A stretch of DNA of 64,000 bases from a virus. Position 1 is the stretch's first letter. Each line of letters opens with the position of its first letter. Made by a program: the position numbers and the translations under genes. The DNA lies in the IMG/VR virus record IMGVR_UViG_3300049893_001613, positions 1 to 64,000 of that record; one strand, given 5' to 3'. Below are positions 14,312 through 17,526 of the stretch, in pieces. The notes under the pieces are model-generated. The model saw only the letters and a list, made by a program, of their open reading frames with translations. It did not search any database and was not told the DNA's origin.

Positions 14312-14767
14312 ATGAAAACAAATATAGAAATCACTAAGTTCAGGTTTCCTGTATTTAAGTCTTACATATCCGTAGTAGTCTCAAACAACATTCCCAATGC
14401 CATTGATTTCATGGAGGATAAGATGCCCCATAAGATCCATGACCCGGATACAAAGAAGTTTACCCGGGCTTACATGTATGCCTATGAGGATGAACTGAAC
14501 AAAAGGAAGTACTTGCTATTCCTCAGACCTTCAGCCAAGCCTGGGGAGATAGCCCACGAAGTTAAACACCTGATTAACATCATGTTCAAGTGGCATGGAT
14601 ACCGGTTAAGCATCGATAACGATGAGCTGGAGTGCTACTACCTGGAAGATATCGTGGACCGCGTGCATTCTGCTATCCTCCGCTACAAGAAAAAATACAG
14701 TAAGCCCAAAAAAATAATCAGTAAAAAGCTTGACATTCCGGAAGAAACACCTATATTTGCACCATGA
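14312..14767 (+). CDS. Putative zincin-like metallopeptidase
   Basis: IAHEVKH (HExxH) with downstream NDELECY. Confidence 0.7.
   Translation: MKTNIEITKFRFPVFKSYISVVVSNNIPNAIDFMEDKMPHKIHDPDTKKFTRAYMYAYEDELNKRKYLLFLRPSAKPGEIAHEVKHLINIMFKWHGYRLSIDNDELECYYLEDIVDRVHSAILRYKKKYSKPKKIISKKLDIPEETPIFAP
14730..14759 (+). promoter_or_regulatory. Sigma-A-type promoter of tRNA block 1
   Basis: TTGA-N18-TATATTTG; predicted start near 14764. Confidence 0.75.
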
Positions 14768-14853
14768 TAACATTAACACTATCCCCCTTATCGCAGCAGC
14801 GCTATCTCAGTCATACTGGGAAAGAGGGGAGTACTGTGTTTAAAGATAATTAA
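14764..14853 (+). CDS. Leader peptide 1 (29 aa) of putative tRNA attenuator
   Basis: MITLTLSPLSQQRYLSHTGKEGSTVFKDN; codons 6-17 use only L,S,P,Q,R,Y,H, the amino acids of the nine downstream tRNAs. Confidence 0.8.
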   Translation: MITLTLSPLSQQRYLSHTGKEGSTVFKDN

Positions 14854-14889
14854 AGCCTTGTCAGGTTAATTTTTAAGTTAAACGTAAAG

Positions 14890-14915
14890 ACCCCTCCTAA
14901 ACCGAGGGGTTTTTT
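14890..14915 (+). terminator. Attenuator terminator 1
   Basis: ACCCCTC/GAGGGGT plus T run just before tRNA-Pro; 5' arm can pair alternatively with GAGGGG at 14824-14829. Confidence 0.85.
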
Positions 14916-14920
14916 ATTTT

Positions 14921-14993
14921 CTGGGTATATATCAATTGGTAGATTTCGTGCTTTGGGAGCATGAGGCTGGAGGTTCAAGTCCTTCTATCCAGA
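14921..14993 (+). tRNA. tRNA-Pro(TGG)
   Basis: Cloverleaf; loop TTTGGGA; T loop TTCAAGT. Confidence 0.9.
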
Positions 14994-14995
14994 CT

Positions 14996-15067
14996 GTCAA
15001 CATGGTGTAATGGTTAGCACCTAAGATTTTGGCTCTTAGAGTTAGGGTTCGAGTCCCTGTGTTGATA
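14996..15067 (+). tRNA. tRNA-Gln(TTG)
   Basis: Cloverleaf; loop TTTTGGC; TTCGAGT. Confidence 0.9.
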
Positions 15068-15069
15068 CT

Positions 15070-15143
15070 GTGTCTGTAGCTTAATGGCAGAGTCAAGGGT
15101 TGTGGTCCCTTTCGTGACGGTTCGACTCCGTTCAGACACCCCA
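15070..15143 (+). tRNA. tRNA-His(GTG)
   Basis: Cloverleaf; loop TTGTGGT; C73 plus encoded CCA. Confidence 0.9.
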
Positions 15144-15144
15144 T

Positions 15145-15216
15145 CTTCCTTTCGTTTAACTGGAAGGACGCAGCGCTACGAACGCTGTAATCCGGGTTCG
15201 AATCCTGGAGGGAAGA
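15145..15216 (+). tRNA. tRNA-Arg(ACG)
   Basis: Cloverleaf; loop CTACGAA. Confidence 0.92.
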
Positions 15217-15223
15217 CTTTAAT

Positions 15224-15299
15224 GCCCTTGTGGTCAAATTGGAAAAGGCGCCTGACTTAGGATCAGGAGATTTTGCAGGTTCGAAGCCTGCCAGGGGTA
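15224..15299 (+). tRNA. tRNA-Leu(TAG), short variable region
   Basis: Cloverleaf; loop CTTAGGA. Confidence 0.9.
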
Positions 15300-15303
15300 C
15301 AAT

Positions 15304-15376
15304 GCCGTCATGATGGAATGGAATACGTGTCAGACTTAAAATCTGAATTTTGCTGGTTCGAGTCCAGCTGGCGGTA
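15304..15376 (+). tRNA. tRNA-Leu(TAA), short variable region
   Basis: Cloverleaf; loop CTTAAAA. Confidence 0.9.
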
Positions 15377-15382
15377 CAATAC

Positions 15383-15467
15383 GGATGGAGTCCGGCATGG
15401 ACGAGGAAACGGTCTTGAAAACCGCTGGCCCTAACACGGTTCGTGAGTTCGATTCTCACTCCCTCCG
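15383..15467 (+). tRNA. tRNA-Ser(TGA)
   Basis: Loop CTTGAAA, long variable arm, G73. Confidence 0.9.
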
Positions 15468-15473
15468 CTAAAC

Positions 15474-15558
15474 AGAGAGTTAACCTACCAGGGTAGGCAA
15501 GCACTGCTAACGCTTTGGCTCGGGGTATCCGGGTGTGGGTCGCGACCACAGCTCTCTG
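15474..15558 (+). tRNA. tRNA-Ser(GCT), atypical T loop
   Basis: Acceptor AGAGAGT/GCTCTCT, loop CTGCTAA, long variable arm, G73; T loop GTCGCGA. Confidence 0.75.
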
Positions 15559-15563
15559 CATAT

Positions 15564-15635
15564 GCTTCAACACCCAGGGCAGGTGGGACGGTCTGTAAAA
15601 CCGAACCCCATGTAGTTCGAGTCTACTCTGAGGCA
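15564..15635 (+). tRNA. tRNA-Tyr(GTA), atypical
   Basis: CGGT-CTGTAAA-ACCG; GTAG-TTCGAGT-CTAC; short variable region. Confidence 0.75.
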
Positions 15636-15658
15636 CAAAAAATAAAGTTGTAAAAAGA

Positions 15659-15690
15659 TTTGGAAGTTTCAACTATCCTCCTCATCTTTG
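15659..15690 (+). promoter_or_regulatory. Sigma-A-type promoter of tRNA blocks 2/3
   Basis: TTTG-N20-CATCTTTG. Confidence 0.65.
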
Positions 15691-15697
15691 TATCCCT

Positions 15698-15775
15698 ATG
15701 AAGAAAGTATTAAAATCTGAAGAACAAGAGGCAGAAGAGCAATATGCTCCTGTCATCTATTTGGTTAGGATCTAA
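15698..15775 (+). CDS. Glu-rich leader peptide (25 aa) overlapping tRNA-Glu
   Basis: MKKVLKSEEQEAEEQYAPVIYLVRI; 5 Glu in 7 codons just before tRNA-Glu; stop lies inside the tRNA. Confidence 0.65.
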   Translation: MKKVLKSEEQEAEEQYAPVIYLVRI

Positions 15776-15818
15776 CACTTTCAATGTTAAAAAACGAGTT
15801 CGAATCTCGTCAGGAGTA
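15746..15818 (+). tRNA. tRNA-Glu(TTC)
   Basis: Cloverleaf; loop CTTTCAA; TTCGAAT. Confidence 0.9.
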
Positions 15819-15831
15819 CTAAAATTTAAAA

Positions 15832-15915
15832 ATGATGAAAAATTGGTTTAATATAGCGAATACGGTCATTACCATGAGAGATTGTGGCAAGGCTGTGTTA
15901 TATTGGGACCTGTAA
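15832..15915 (+). CDS. Leader peptide 3 (27 aa) of putative tRNA attenuator
   Basis: MMKNWFNIANTVITMRDCGKAVLYWDL after an A-rich leader; first 22 codons use exactly the 13 amino acids of the downstream tRNAs. Confidence 0.85.
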   Translation: MMKNWFNIANTVITMRDCGKAVLYWDL

Positions 15916-15941
15916 GATAGTTTGTATTATGTTTTCTGCAA

Positions 15942-15967
15942 AGGTCCCGTCACAAGCGGGACTTTTT
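15942..15967 (+). terminator. Attenuator terminator 3
   Basis: GTCCCG/CGGGAC plus TTTTT just before tRNA-Ala; AGGTCCC can pair alternatively with GGGACCT at 15905-15911. Confidence 0.85.
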
Positions 15968-15972
15968 CATTT

Positions 15973-16044
15973 GGGGCTAGAGACCAAGGCTGGCTGTTGT
16001 CCTTTGCAAGGATGACGTGGTGGGTTCGATTTCCACTTGCTCCA
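15973..16044 (+). tRNA. tRNA-Ala(TGC)
   Basis: GGGGCTA acceptor with G3:U70; loop TTTGCAA. Confidence 0.85.
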
Positions 16045-16048
16045 CTAT

Positions 16049-16121
16049 AGTTCTGAGGTCAAACGGTTAAGATGTATCACTGTCTATGATTACGGAGCGG
16101 GTTCAACTCCCGTCAGAACTG
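16049..16121 (+). tRNA. tRNA-Asp(GTC)
   Basis: Loop CTGTCTA; G73. Confidence 0.85.
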
Positions 16122-16130
16122 CAAACAAAA

Positions 16131-16203
16131 GGACTGGTAGCTCAGCGGCAGTAGCAAGCGGTTGTTAACCACTAGGTCGTAGGTTCGATCCCTACCTGGT
16201 CCT
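16131..16203 (+). tRNA. tRNA-Asn(GTT)
   Basis: Loop TTGTTAA; TTCGATC. Confidence 0.88.
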
Positions 16204-16208
16204 CACAT

Positions 16209-16330
16209 GGAGAATTCCCAGAGCACGGTGTGAAAAGCCGGAACGCTGGGGGATATAAATCCTTCCCTGTTAAGGGAAGTAACAGCAAGGGTTAAGAGAA
16301 ATCTTCTCCCGCTTTTTAAATTCTCCGCCA
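16209..16330 (+). ncRNA. Unclassified structured RNA with acceptor-like stem and GCCA end
   Basis: GGAGAATT/AATTCTCC-GCCA enclosing three hairpins; no T loop. Confidence 0.6.
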
Positions 16331-16401
16331 CACGTCCCGGGCTAGGGTAGCCAAGCGGTCTCCAAAACCGCAGGACAAGGTTCGATTCCTTGGGAGCGTG
16401 C
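16331..16401 (+). tRNA. tRNA-Trp(CCA)
   Basis: GCGGT-CTCCAAA-ACCGC; TTCGATT; irregular acceptor stem. Confidence 0.82.
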
Positions 16402-16405
16402 TTAT

Positions 16406-16478
16406 TCCGGTGAAGCTCATGTGGAAGAGCTACAGTTTTGTAAACTGAGGGCTGTCGGTTCGAACCCGTCCTCCGGAT
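16406..16478 (+). tRNA. tRNA-Thr(TGT)
   Basis: Loop TTTGTAA; TTCGAAC. Confidence 0.88.
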
Positions 16479-16514
16479 CATGTTAAGATTAAGACATAGG
16501 TCATTCTAAAATAA

Positions 16515-16585
16515 GCTCTTGTAGTTTAATGGAAAAACCTTTGTCTTCTAAACAAAAGATTCCGGTTCGAATCCGGGCAGGAGTT
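16515..16585 (+). tRNA. tRNA-Arg(TCT)
   Basis: TTTGT-CTTCTAA-ACAAA; TTCGAAT. Confidence 0.9.
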
Positions 16586-16588
16586 CAT

Positions 16589-16660
16589 CGACCCTTGGCG
16601 CAATGGTGGCGCAACTGGCTCATAACCAGCAGGACACTGGATCAGTACCAGTAGGGTCAA
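16589..16660 (+). tRNA. tRNA(CAT), Met/fMet/Ile2 identity unresolved
   Basis: Loop CTCATAA; C1xA72 mismatch; atypical T loop ATCAGTA. Confidence 0.8.
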
Positions 16661-16681
16661 CTAATTTAAAACCAATGTACA

Positions 16682-16795
16682 ATGGATGAGCAAGAATACG
16701 AATGGGCTAATGTTGAAAGGCCGGTAAAAGAAGAAGCTGAGGAACCAAAAACCTGCAGCTTAGAAGATGGTGAATGTTTAAGTTGTGGATCATGA
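16682..16795 (+). CDS. 37-aa acidic peptide ending CxxCGS
   Basis: MDEQEYEWANVERPVKEEAEEPKTCSLEDGECLSCGS; fills the gap between two tRNAs. Confidence 0.7.
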   Translation: MDEQEYEWANVERPVKEEAEEPKTCSLEDGECLSCGS

Positions 16796-16827
16796 TAACA
16801 GATAAGAAAGACTACGATAAGCTTAAT

Positions 16828-16899
16828 GCTGTCGTAGCTCCAATGTAGAGCTTCCGGCTTTTAACCGGAAGGTTGTGGGTTCAAGTCCCACCGGCAGTA
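16828..16899 (+). tRNA. tRNA-Lys(TTT)
   Basis: TCCGG-CTTTTAA-CCGGA. Confidence 0.92.
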
Positions 16900-16904
16900 C
16901 AGAT

Positions 16905-16978
16905 GTTGAAGTAATTCAAGTGGTACAGAACCCTCCCTGATAAGGAGGTATGTGGTGGTTCAAATCCATCCTTCAACA
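16905..16978 (+). tRNA. tRNA-Ile(GAT)
   Basis: CCTCC-CTGATAA-GGAGG. Confidence 0.92.
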
Positions 16979-16983
16979 CACAT

Positions 16984-17056
16984 CGGGGTGAGAATTGGTA
17001 TTCCATCGGGTCTCATAAGCCTGACTTCGTGGGTTCGTTTCCCACCGCCCCAACCA
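16984..17056 (+). tRNA. tRNA(CAT), initiator-like
   Basis: C1xA72, loop CTCATAA, encoded CCA. Confidence 0.82.
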
Positions 17057-17057
17057 T

Positions 17058-17130
17058 GGAGACATAACATAGATGGTCTATGTATCCGCCTGAAGAGCGG
17101 AAGATCCTGGATCGTTACCAGGTGGCTCCA
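17058..17130 (+). tRNA. tRNA-Phe(GAA)
   Basis: TCCGC-CTGAAGA-GCGGA; atypical T loop ATCGTTA. Confidence 0.82.
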
Positions 17131-17135
17131 CATAT

Positions 17136-17193
17136 CTCACCCTAAGAGGCTTTGCAGACTGGTACCGGAAAGCAGTAGTGTCGGGTGAGTCCA
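17136..17193 (+). ncRNA. 58-nt mini RNA with 7-bp acceptor stem and UCCA end
   Basis: CTCACCC/GGGTGAG-T-CCA; spaced like a tRNA gene; no D or T arm. Confidence 0.5.
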
Positions 17194-17194
17194 T

Positions 17195-17266
17195 GCTCCT
17201 TTAGTTCACCGGAAGAACGCTTGGTTTACATCCAAGATGCAGGTGGTTCAATTCCATCAGGGAGTA
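17195..17266 (+). tRNA. tRNA-Val(TAC)
   Basis: CTTGG-TTTACAT-CCAAG. Confidence 0.92.
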
Positions 17267-17307
17267 CAGGTAGTTTTGGAGGTTCTCGTGTAAAAAACCT
17301 TCTTCAT

Positions 17308-17383
17308 GCAGTAATAGCTCCCAATGTAGAGCGGTGGTCTTCCAAACCTCAGGCTGTGAGTTCAAGTCTCACTTACTGCACCA
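17308..17383 (+). tRNA. tRNA-Gly(TCC)
   Basis: Loop CTTCCAA; encoded CCA. Confidence 0.9.
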
Positions 17384-17384
17384 T

Positions 17385-17451
17385 GACCATGACGGCCGTA
17401 GAACTCTGTCTGCAAAACAGAGAAACGTGGGTTGAACTCCCACCTTGGTCT
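17385..17451 (+). tRNA. tRNA-Cys(GCA), reduced D arm
   Basis: TCTGT-CTGCAAA-ACAGA; U73; T loop TTGAACT. Confidence 0.75.
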
Positions 17452-17478
17452 CACTGCAAAAATAAATTTTGCATTTTA

Positions 17479-17511
17479 TTTGGAAGTAAACACAATTTAT
17501 GTTTACCTTTA
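17479..17511 (+). promoter_or_regulatory. Sigma-A-type promoter after the tRNA cluster
   Basis: TTTG...TACCTTTA; shares TTTGGAAGT with the 15659 promoter. Confidence 0.5.
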
Positions 17512-17526
17512 CGGGTAGATTAAATT

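What the first reader, a model, noticed from the sequence alone, without database searches (positions are those of the whole stretch)
15659..15818. Glu-rich leader ORF translates into tRNA-Glu itself, with no terminator
Seen: promoter, then ORF 15698-15775 with GAA GAA CAA GAG GCA GAA GAG ending 6 nt before the tRNA-Glu 5' end. The last 10 codons run through the acceptor 5' strand and D arm, and the stop falls in the anticodon stem. I see no terminator hairpin. Inference: a different switch in which normal translation unfolds the pre-tRNA and blocks maturation, while stalling on Glu codons lets it fold. This would keep Glu control separate while transcription continues to leader 3.
Basis: partly seen in the sequence, partly recalled or inferred. 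Interest (0 to 1): 0.75.

Follow-up and report, generated by a model that had tools for sequence, protein, structure and literature searches.

The report
Glutamate-codon mini-gene locking phage tRNA-Glu
In a crAss-like phage, a 25-codon mini-gene packed with glutamate codons runs straight into the phage's own glutamate tRNA gene, and its RNA can fold over the start of that tRNA. It therefore probably releases the tRNA only when ribosomes stall for lack of it, a form of tRNA control I found in no published paper.

Summary
ORF 15698-15775 has five Glu codons within seven. That run ends 6 nt before tRNA-Glu(UUC) at 15746-15818. The frame then reads tRNA bases 1-27 and stops at bases 28-30. There is no terminator.

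It is unlikely to be chance:
- It is the most Glu-dense of 423 small ORFs in the genome.
- It is the only such case among 553 phage tRNAs examined.
- It supplies the one amino acid missing from two neighbouring leader-plus-terminator units. Their codons match the 9 tRNAs before it and the 14 after it.

A Bacteroidetes-type promoter ends 7 nt before the ATG, so the mRNA is nearly leaderless.

The Glu tract (15727-15741) is predicted to pair with tRNA bases 1-13 (p about 0.01). A ribosome stalled on the first Glu codons would free the acceptor stem.

My reading is a translation-gated lock on pre-tRNA-Glu folding.

There is no RNA data and no usable relative, so the mechanism is inferred. This scan has noted similar anti-tRNA leaders, and codon-matched attenuators, on other phage DNA. 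I found no published account.

The parts
15659..15662 (+). -33 element (TTTG) of promoter P2
   Evidence: Fits the Bacteroidetes consensus of -33 TTTG and -7 TAnnTTTG (PMC7366714). The word AAAGATTTGG-N19-ATCTTTGTA occurs in more than 117 IMG/VR loci. In six phage contigs it lies 11-46 nt before a tRNA-Glu.
15683..15690 (+). -7 element (CATCTTTG) of promoter P2. The transcription start is inferred at about 15694-15697.
   Evidence: It lies 20 nt from the -33 element, the same spacing as in L005. It has one mismatch to TAnnTTTG. No start site has been mapped.
15698..15775 (+). Leader ORF L2, 25 codons. The ATG is 7 nt after the -7 box, so the mRNA is nearly leaderless.
   Evidence: As a 5'UTR its start context scores poorly (-5.15, bottom 2% of the phage's genes), which is expected if those bases are promoter DNA.
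15719..15739 (+). Glu-codon tract: GAA GAA CAA GAG GCA GAA GAG
   Evidence: It is one of only three places in the 64 kb window, over six frames, with at least 5 Glu codons in 7. The other two lie inside one Glu-rich gene.
15727..15741 (+). 5' arm of the predicted anti-acceptor hairpin, inside the Glu tract
   Evidence: A 13-bp bulged hairpin of -12.8 kcal/mol.
15745..15758 (+). 3' arm of the anti-acceptor hairpin, made of tRNA-Glu positions -1 to 13
15746..15818 (+). tRNA-Glu(UUC). It has a G1-U72 pair and no encoded CCA.
   Evidence: ARAGORN. Rfam RF00005, 57.8 bits.
14764..14853 (+). Context: leader L1. Its core LSPLSQQRYLSH uses only the amino acids of the 9 tRNAs of block 1.
   Evidence: The iid probability is 4e-6.
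14886..14914 (+). Context: terminator T1, directly before tRNA-Pro
15832..15915 (+). Context: leader L3. Its first 22 codons use exactly the 13 amino acids of the 14 tRNAs of block 3, and none is Glu.
   Evidence: The iid probability is 5e-7. Its start context is like that of real genes.
15941..15967 (+). Context: terminator T3, before tRNA-Ala
   Evidence: A hairpin plus a T run, read.

Best explanation
L2 is a nearly leaderless sensor mini-gene for Glu codons. It is transcribed from its own host-type promoter P2 together with the phage tRNA-Glu. The RNA of its Glu-codon tract is complementary to the first 13 bases of the tRNA.

When no ribosome sits on the tract, the tract pairs with those bases as soon as they are made. 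The acceptor and D stems then cannot form, and RNase P has no substrate. This holds whether the ORF is untranslated or the ribosome has already passed and terminated inside the tRNA.

When charged tRNA-Glu is scarce, the leading ribosome stalls at the first GAA codons (15719-15724). It covers the tract and leaves 11-14 free leader bases. The cloverleaf folds and the tRNA matures.

Ribosomes that read on into the tRNA add a second, cruder block. L2 thus supplies the Glu channel of an array-wide system of codon-matched leaders.

Shown: the sequence anatomy, the statistics, the promoter family, and the in-silico two-state fold. Inferred: the transcription start, translation of the ORF, stalling, and the effect on RNase P.
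For: 1. Glu density. It occurs in 0.03% of shuffled spacers. The iid probability is 1.3e-4. It is unique among 423 small ORFs of the genome and among 553 distinct phage tRNA upstream regions. Fifteen other phage tRNAs with the same 5' half have no Glu-rich upstream ORF.

2. Context. The 24 tRNAs cover all 20 amino acids. The L1 core uses only block-1 amino acids. The first 22 codons of L3 use exactly the 13 block-3 amino acids. Arg is CGC in L1 and AGA in L3, matching tRNA-Arg(ACG) and tRNA-Arg(UCU). Glu is the only amino acid that neither leader samples, and tRNA-Glu is the only tRNA between L2 and L3.

3. Promoter. P2 fits the Bacteroidetes -33/-7 consensus. It belongs to a promoter word found in more than 117 phage loci. 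In six contigs that word sits directly before a tRNA-Glu with no ORF, so L2 is an insert between a standard promoter and its tRNA.

4. Fold. The minimum-energy fold is -26.9 kcal/mol, with 12 of the first 13 tRNA bases paired to the leader. The best fold with the acceptor stem is -19.1. Masking a 28-nt footprint with the A site on Glu codons 1-4 restores 6-7 acceptor pairs. Masking the footprint at the stop codon lets the lock re-form. Shuffled leaders give p = 0.0125, and natural leaders of other tRNAs mostly score 0 to -4.5. Codon-order permutations give p = 0.013-0.021.

5. Relatives. A roughly 90%-identical relative has a 3-nt, in-frame deletion in the GAA GAA run. Another contig keeps the region with 2 substitutions and no gaps.

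6. Precedent for the logic. Mycobacterial leaderless polycysteine sORFs work by stalled ribosomes blocking a duplex that hides a downstream site (10.1101/834739).
Against: - I have no evidence of transcription, translation or processing.
- The start codon lacks the A-rich context of this phage's genes. The leaderless reading rests on a predicted promoter with one mismatch. Only about 3.7% of B. thetaiotaomicron mRNAs have 5'UTRs under 10 nt.
- Support for the hairpin is modest. Nucleotide shuffles give p about 0.05. The actual codon choice ranks only 168-280 of 1024 synonymous versions.
- GAR codons are by nature complementary to the CUCCUG of this acceptor strand, so the pairing may be a by-product.
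- Nearest-neighbour folding ignores tRNA tertiary structure. It also misfolds two other tRNAs of the array without any leader involvement.
- The ORF also holds Lys, Leu, Ser, Gln, Val, Ala and Tyr codons.
- A 3-nt loss in a GAA GAA repeat is what slippage would give anyway.
- I could fetch no relative, so there is no test by covariation or conservation.
Confidence: 0.45

Rival explanations
1. L2 senses Glu, and the only effector is the ribosome itself. Ongoing translation through tRNA bases 1-30 keeps the 5' half unfolded. Stalling upstream lets the tRNA fold.
For: The frame does run 27 nt into the tRNA before its stop codon at bases 28-30. All the statistics and context that favour a Glu sensor apply equally here. 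The model needs no assumption about a modestly supported hairpin.
Against: A ribosome leaves after terminating, so run-through only delays folding unless traffic is dense. The overlapping tail is dictated by the tRNA sequence, and the stop is simply the first one in that frame. This model does not explain why the 20 nt before the tRNA are complementary to it.
Confidence: 0.15
2. Chance. The spacer is a purine-rich promoter-proximal leader of a tRNA gene. The open frame and its Glu codons have no sensing role.
For: Frames that read into tRNAs are frequent. The start context is poor. No conservation or expression data exist. Other phages drive tRNA-Glu from the same promoter with no ORF. No analogue turned up among the 553 tRNAs examined.
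Against: The Glu density is extreme by every control. It sits in frame with an ATG placed 7 nt after the -7 box. It abuts the cognate tRNA. It fills exactly the gap left by two neighbouring leaders whose codon matching has probabilities of 4e-6 and 5e-7.
Confidence: 0.2
3. An RNA-only element. The leader hairpin over the tRNA 5' end is a processing or timing signal that works without translation. It could be a cleavage site, or a lock opened by another factor.
For: The pairing itself. In the 85%-identical contig of run X3, similarity to the window starts at 15726, the start of the 5' arm. Flanking structure is known to inhibit RNase P on the secG-leuU transcript (PMC2241853).
Against: It does not explain the in-frame ATG, the period-3 GAR pattern, or the match to the codon-partition logic of L1 and L3.
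Confidence: 0.12
4. L2 senses Glu, but its output is something other than tRNA-Glu maturation. It might control stability of the P2 transcript or ribosome loading for the downstream leader L3.
For: P2 also feeds L3, T3 and block 3. L3 starts only 13 nt after the tRNA-Glu 3' end.
Against: I saw no complementarity between the freed tRNA 3' strand and the L3/T3 region. A folded tRNA separates the two ORFs.
Confidence: 0.08

Closest known systems
Leader-peptide transcription attenuators of amino-acid operons (trpL, hisL, pheL; pheL reviewed in PMC3082878)
   Same: A very short ORF enriched in codons of one amino acid. Ribosome position on it chooses between two RNA folds. The result is homeostatic feedback through charged tRNA.
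   Different: There is no terminator and no antiterminator. The regulated product is a tRNA, not biosynthetic enzymes. The productive helix is the tRNA acceptor stem. The ORF overlaps the regulated gene.
Leaderless polycysteine short ORFs of mycobacteria (10.1101/834739)
   Same: A leaderless short ORF whose stalled ribosomes block an RNA duplex that would otherwise hide a downstream functional site. No terminator is involved.
   Different: There the hidden site is a ribosome-binding site of a protein gene. Here it is the 5' strand of a tRNA, so the output is RNA maturation and not translation.
Codon-matched leader-plus-terminator units before phage tRNA blocks. Examples are L1/T1 and L3/T3 in this window and L131, L088, L060 and L005 in other phages. 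This scan has noted them on other DNA, and I found no paper describing them.
   Same: The same array, the same promoter type and the same sensing principle. L2 supplies the twentieth amino acid.
   Different: L2 senses a single amino acid, has no terminator, abuts and overlaps its tRNA, and must act after transcription.
mRNA-tRNA co-transcripts matured by RNase P (E. coli secG-leuU, PMC2241853)
   Same: An ORF and a tRNA share one transcript. RNase P separates them, and neighbouring structure modulates the cleavage.
   Different: secG ends before leuU and encodes a real protein. No codon sensing is known there.

Membership tests
Ribosome-mediated transcription attenuator (trpL/hisL type) | Short ORF enriched in codons of the regulated amino acid | tested here: met
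   5 Glu codons in 7.
Ribosome-mediated transcription attenuator (trpL/hisL type) | Intrinsic terminator between the leader ORF and the regulated gene | tested here: not met
   No hairpin with a T run lies between 15698 and 15940. The ORF overlaps the tRNA.
Ribosome-mediated transcription attenuator (trpL/hisL type) | Antiterminator fold that competes with the terminator | tested here: not met
   There is no terminator to compete with. The competing helices are leader:tRNA 5' strand against the acceptor stem.
Structure-unmasking sensory short ORF (mycobacterial Cys LL-sORF, ermCL type) | Leaderless or short-leader sensory ORF | tested here: inconclusive
   The ATG lies 7 nt after a predicted -7 box. 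The transcription start has not been mapped.
Structure-unmasking sensory short ORF (mycobacterial Cys LL-sORF, ermCL type) | A stalled ribosome prevents a duplex that sequesters a downstream functional site | tested here: inconclusive
   Met in silico (p about 0.01). There is no experimental or covariation support.
Structure-unmasking sensory short ORF (mycobacterial Cys LL-sORF, ermCL type) | The sequestered site is a ribosome-binding site | tested here: not met
   The sequestered site is tRNA bases 1-13.
Codon-matched leader system of phage tRNA arrays | Leader codons correspond to the tRNAs immediately downstream | tested here: met
   L2 matches tRNA-Glu. L1 and L3 match their blocks, including the split of the Arg codons.
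Codon-matched leader system of phage tRNA arrays | Switchable terminator after the leader | tested here: not met
   Present for L1 and L3. Absent for L2.
Anti-tRNA leader / ribosome-unlocked tRNA maturation (class noted by this scan only) | Leader RNA pairs with the tRNA 5' end, and the sensing codons lie in or next to that arm | tested here: met
   15727-15741 pairs with 15745-15758. The 5' arm holds the GAG of codon 11 (less its first base) and the whole of codons 13 and 14; GAA GAA lies 3 nt upstream.
Anti-tRNA leader / ribosome-unlocked tRNA maturation (class noted by this scan only) | Pairing and ORF conserved or co-varying in relatives | not testable with these tools
   The relatives exist only as Logan contigs.

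The most novel reading that the evidence does not exclude
tRNA-Glu maturation is gated by translation of a cognate-codon mini-gene that overlaps the tRNA. The precursor is born locked by its own leader, and only a ribosome starved for Glu-tRNA unlocks it. Together with the two flanking attenuators, this gives the phage a sensor of tRNA-pool depletion for all 20 amino acids, plausibly a counter to host tRNA-cleaving defences.
Probability: 0.45. Interest if true: 0.9.

Novelty: new variant of a known kind. Interest (0 to 1): 0.72.

Why it matters
No mechanism is published by which a cell or a virus measures the decoding capacity for one codon family and answers by releasing the matching tRNA. 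If L2 works as proposed, it shows three things:
- Ribosome-stalling logic can act on RNA maturation as well as on transcription or translation.
- A tRNA precursor can be made inactive by design.
- Phages can top up single tRNAs on demand.

It would also explain how a phage can carry a full tRNA set without paying for it all the time. The element is about 160 nt long, self-contained, and testable in vitro.

Tried and rejected
**Relatives**
- The closest IMG/VR relatives, found through the flanking proteins (61% identity for the downstream phosphoesterase, 55-62% for the upstream 151-aa protein), have no tRNA array at this place.
- Exact-word scans with the tRNA-Glu 3' half found only unrelated tRNAs, both in IMG/VR and in JGI metagenomes.
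The single read-laying table was cut off, so only the 3-nt deletion at 15718 and a 151-nt contig with 2 changes could be read.
- The scan's own index holds no look-alike window.

**Expression.** No RNA holder was listed for this stretch.

**Ideas dropped**
- A sigma-70 promoter: none was found in the scan.
- An Rfam family in the spacer: none.
- A stable fold of the leader on its own: z = +0.89.
- The anti-acceptor hairpin plus the U-rich D loop acting as a terminator. The ribosome logic would be inverted.
- Rho loading. The downstream RNA is a tRNA.
- L2 as a truncated copy of the Glu-rich ORF at 16682-16795. That ORF is a conserved small cysteine protein, and its Glu residues lie in a variable linker.
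- A general rule of leaders in every phage array. L006 has ordinary genes between its tRNAs.

Full report
**What the window is.** The window is the first 64 kb of a complete 96,443-bp IMG/VR virus record from freshwater sediment. Its terminase, portal and major head proteins match crAss-type families. Its genes have A-rich upstream regions with no Shine-Dalgarno sequence. Both features point to a Bacteroidota host.

The + strand from 14921 to 17450 carries a tRNA array. ARAGORN finds 20 tRNAs at default settings. Rfam adds tRNA-Asp. A relaxed ARAGORN run adds Tyr, Ala and Cys. That makes 24 tRNAs covering all 20 amino acids.

**The observation.**
- The ATG is at 15698.
- Five Glu codons lie within 15719-15739.
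- Six bases separate the last Glu codon from G1 of tRNA-Glu(UUC) at 15746.
- Nine further sense codons read tRNA bases 1-27.
- TAA falls on bases 28-30, in the anticodon stem.
- No terminator-like site precedes the hairpin at 15941-15967.

**Is it more than chance?**
- The overlap alone is not unusual. Nearly every tRNA of the array is crossed by a sense-strand ORF of at least 20 codons. In 22-27% of shuffled spacers an ATG frame runs into the tRNA.
- The Glu density is unusual. It occurs in 0.03% of shuffles. Only two other places in the 64 kb window reach it, over all six frames, and both lie inside one Glu-rich gene.
- Under the phage's own amino-acid frequencies the probability is 1.3e-4.
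- It is the only one of 423 small ATG ORFs in the genome with 5 Glu in 7 residues.
- Fifteen other phage tRNAs with the same 5' half have no Glu-rich ORF upstream.

**The context.** The array falls into three blocks:

| Leader | What follows it | tRNAs downstream | Match |
|---|---|---|---|
| L1 (14764-14853) | terminator 14886-14914 | Pro, Gln, His, Arg(ACG), Leu x2, Ser x2, Tyr | core LSPLSQQRYLSH uses only these seven amino acids (p 4e-6) |
| L2 (15698-15775) | no terminator | Glu | five Glu codons in seven |
| L3 (15832-15915) | terminator 15941-15967 | Ala, Asp, Asn, Trp, Thr, Arg(UCU), Met, Lys, Ile, Met/Ile2, Phe, Val, Gly, Cys | first 22 codons use exactly these 13 amino acids (p 5e-7) |

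Arg is CGC in L1 and AGA in L3, matching the two Arg tRNAs. Glu is the one amino acid that neither the L1 core nor the first 22 codons of L3 contains, and tRNA-Glu is the one tRNA between L2 and L3.

I had begun to see this pattern.

The same design occurs in unrelated phage contigs. In L131 the leader core TQHTQQFPTTPCFT precedes tRNAs Pro, Cys, Phe, Thr, Gln and His. L088, L060 and L005 each have a leader plus terminator before partly matching blocks.

The second Glu-rich ORF in the array (16682-16795) is not a leader. It belongs to a conserved family of small cysteine proteins.

**The promoter.**
- The element that starts at 15659 is a -33 TTTG, then 20 nt, then CATCTTTG. That is one mismatch from the Bacteroidetes -7 consensus TAnnTTTG (PMC7366714).
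- Its flanks recur at the end of the array (17458-17513) and nowhere else on this strand.
- The word AAAGATTTGG-N19-ATCTTTGTA occurs in more than 117 IMG/VR loci.
- In six phage contigs it lies 11-46 nt before a tRNA-Glu with an A-rich leader that contains no ORF.
- L2 therefore looks like an insert between a standard promoter and its tRNA.
- The ATG lies 7 nt after the -7 box, so the mRNA should have a leader of only about 1-4 nt.
- This explains why the bases before the ATG score badly as a 5'UTR. It remains a prediction.

**The mechanism.**
- The Glu tract at 15727-15741 can pair with 15745-15758, which is tRNA positions -1 to 13. The result is a 13-bp bulged hairpin of -12.8 kcal/mol.
- For the transcript 15695-15830 the minimum-energy fold (-26.9) has this hairpin and no acceptor stem. 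The best fold with the acceptor stem is -19.1.
- Masking a 28-nt ribosome footprint with the A site on any of the first four Glu codons restores 6-7 acceptor pairs.
- On the last Glu codon the footprint itself covers the tRNA start.
- With the ribosome at the stop codon the hairpin re-forms.
- Controls: shuffled leaders give p = 0.0125, and natural leaders of other tRNAs here and in other phages mostly give 0 to -4.5 kcal/mol. Codon-order permutations give p = 0.013-0.021 and nucleotide shuffles p about 0.05. The codon choice is not optimised among synonymous versions, ranking 168-280 of 1024.
- The lock is therefore plausible but not proven. Part of it follows from GAR codons being complementary to the CUCCUG of this acceptor strand.

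**The model.** A ribosome stalled at GAA GAA for want of Glu-tRNA covers the lock and leaves 11-14 free leader bases for RNase P, so the tRNA is released. With ample Glu-tRNA the ribosome reads on and terminates inside the tRNA. The lock then forms behind it.

It adds a defined RNA device and answers the footprint objection. A stop codon placed before 15746 would tell the two apart.

**Relatives and expression.**
- Only one look at relatives was possible. An 85-kb contig about 90% identical has a 3-nt in-frame loss in the GAA GAA run.
- A 151-nt contig covers 15671-15821 with two changes and no gaps.
- In an 85%-identical contig, similarity begins at 15726, the start of the lock's 5' arm.
- These results are compatible with constraint, but they are weak evidence.

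**What is known.**
- I found no paper on leader peptides controlling tRNA genes or tRNA maturation.
- The nearest published logic is the mycobacterial leaderless polycysteine sORFs, where stalled ribosomes block a duplex hiding a ribosome-binding site.
- Classical attenuators are also close, but L2 lacks their defining terminator.
- secG-leuU shows that flanking structure can inhibit RNase P.
- This scan has already noted the same kinds of element on other phage DNA: codon-matched attenuators, 'ribosome-unlocked' anti-tRNA leaders, and Lys mini-gene switches. Those are unchecked AI notes. I reached the hairpin reading before seeing them, and they do not count as evidence here.

**Verdict.** About 0.7 of my odds fall on readings in which it senses Glu codons. 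The lock-and-stall mechanism is my best reading, at about 0.45. It is a new variant of ribosome-stalling control with a new kind of output.

Noticed in passing
window 16682-16795 (+): A 37-aa ORF inside the tRNA array belongs to a conserved family of small proteins (36-55 aa). W8, A9, N10, C25, D29, C32, C35 and G36 are invariant, giving the pattern WAN ... C-x6-C-x2-CG. Its start context is like that of real genes. Its function is unknown.
   Followed up: partly
window 16205-16331 (+): A strongly structured RNA of about 120 nt lies between tRNA-Asn and tRNA-Trp. It has an 8-bp closing stem (GGAGAAUU/AAUUCUCC) and four internal hairpins, with a fold z-score of -3.8. It matches no Rfam family and ARAGORN does not call it a tRNA.
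   Followed up: partly
window 15564-15636, 15972-16045, 17380-17450 (+): tRNA-Tyr(GUA), tRNA-Ala(UGC) and tRNA-Cys(GCA) are found only at relaxed ARAGORN thresholds. Default ARAGORN and the Rfam gathering score both miss them. The Tyr tRNA has a short variable arm, and the Cys tRNA has a reduced D arm.
   Followed up: partly
L131 9101-8507 (-); L088 5275-7308 (+); L060 3078-2559 (-); L005 4244-3004 (-) and 4671-4540 (-): Other uncultured phages have leader-plus-terminator units whose codons match the tRNAs behind them. The cleanest is L131, where the core TQHTQQFPTTPCFT precedes exactly tRNAs Pro, Cys, Phe, Thr, Gln and His. L005 carries two paralogous leaders in tandem.
   Followed up: partly
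loci L045-L160 (IMG/VR): The promoter word AAAGATTTGG-N18-21-ATCTTTGTA is very common in phage contigs. It often lies directly before tRNA genes.
   Followed up: partly
window 17132-17194 (+): A 63-nt spacer between tRNA-Phe and tRNA-Val folds into one long hairpin of -21.6 kcal/mol (z = -2.1). It is not a tRNA, and its role is unknown.
   Followed up: no
window 14764-14767 (+): The ATG of leader L1 overlaps the TGA stop of the upstream 151-aa gene in the word ATGA. It also lies 4 nt after a perfect -7 box, TATATTTG. L1 could therefore be translated either by coupling to the upstream gene or from a leaderless transcript.
   Followed up: no
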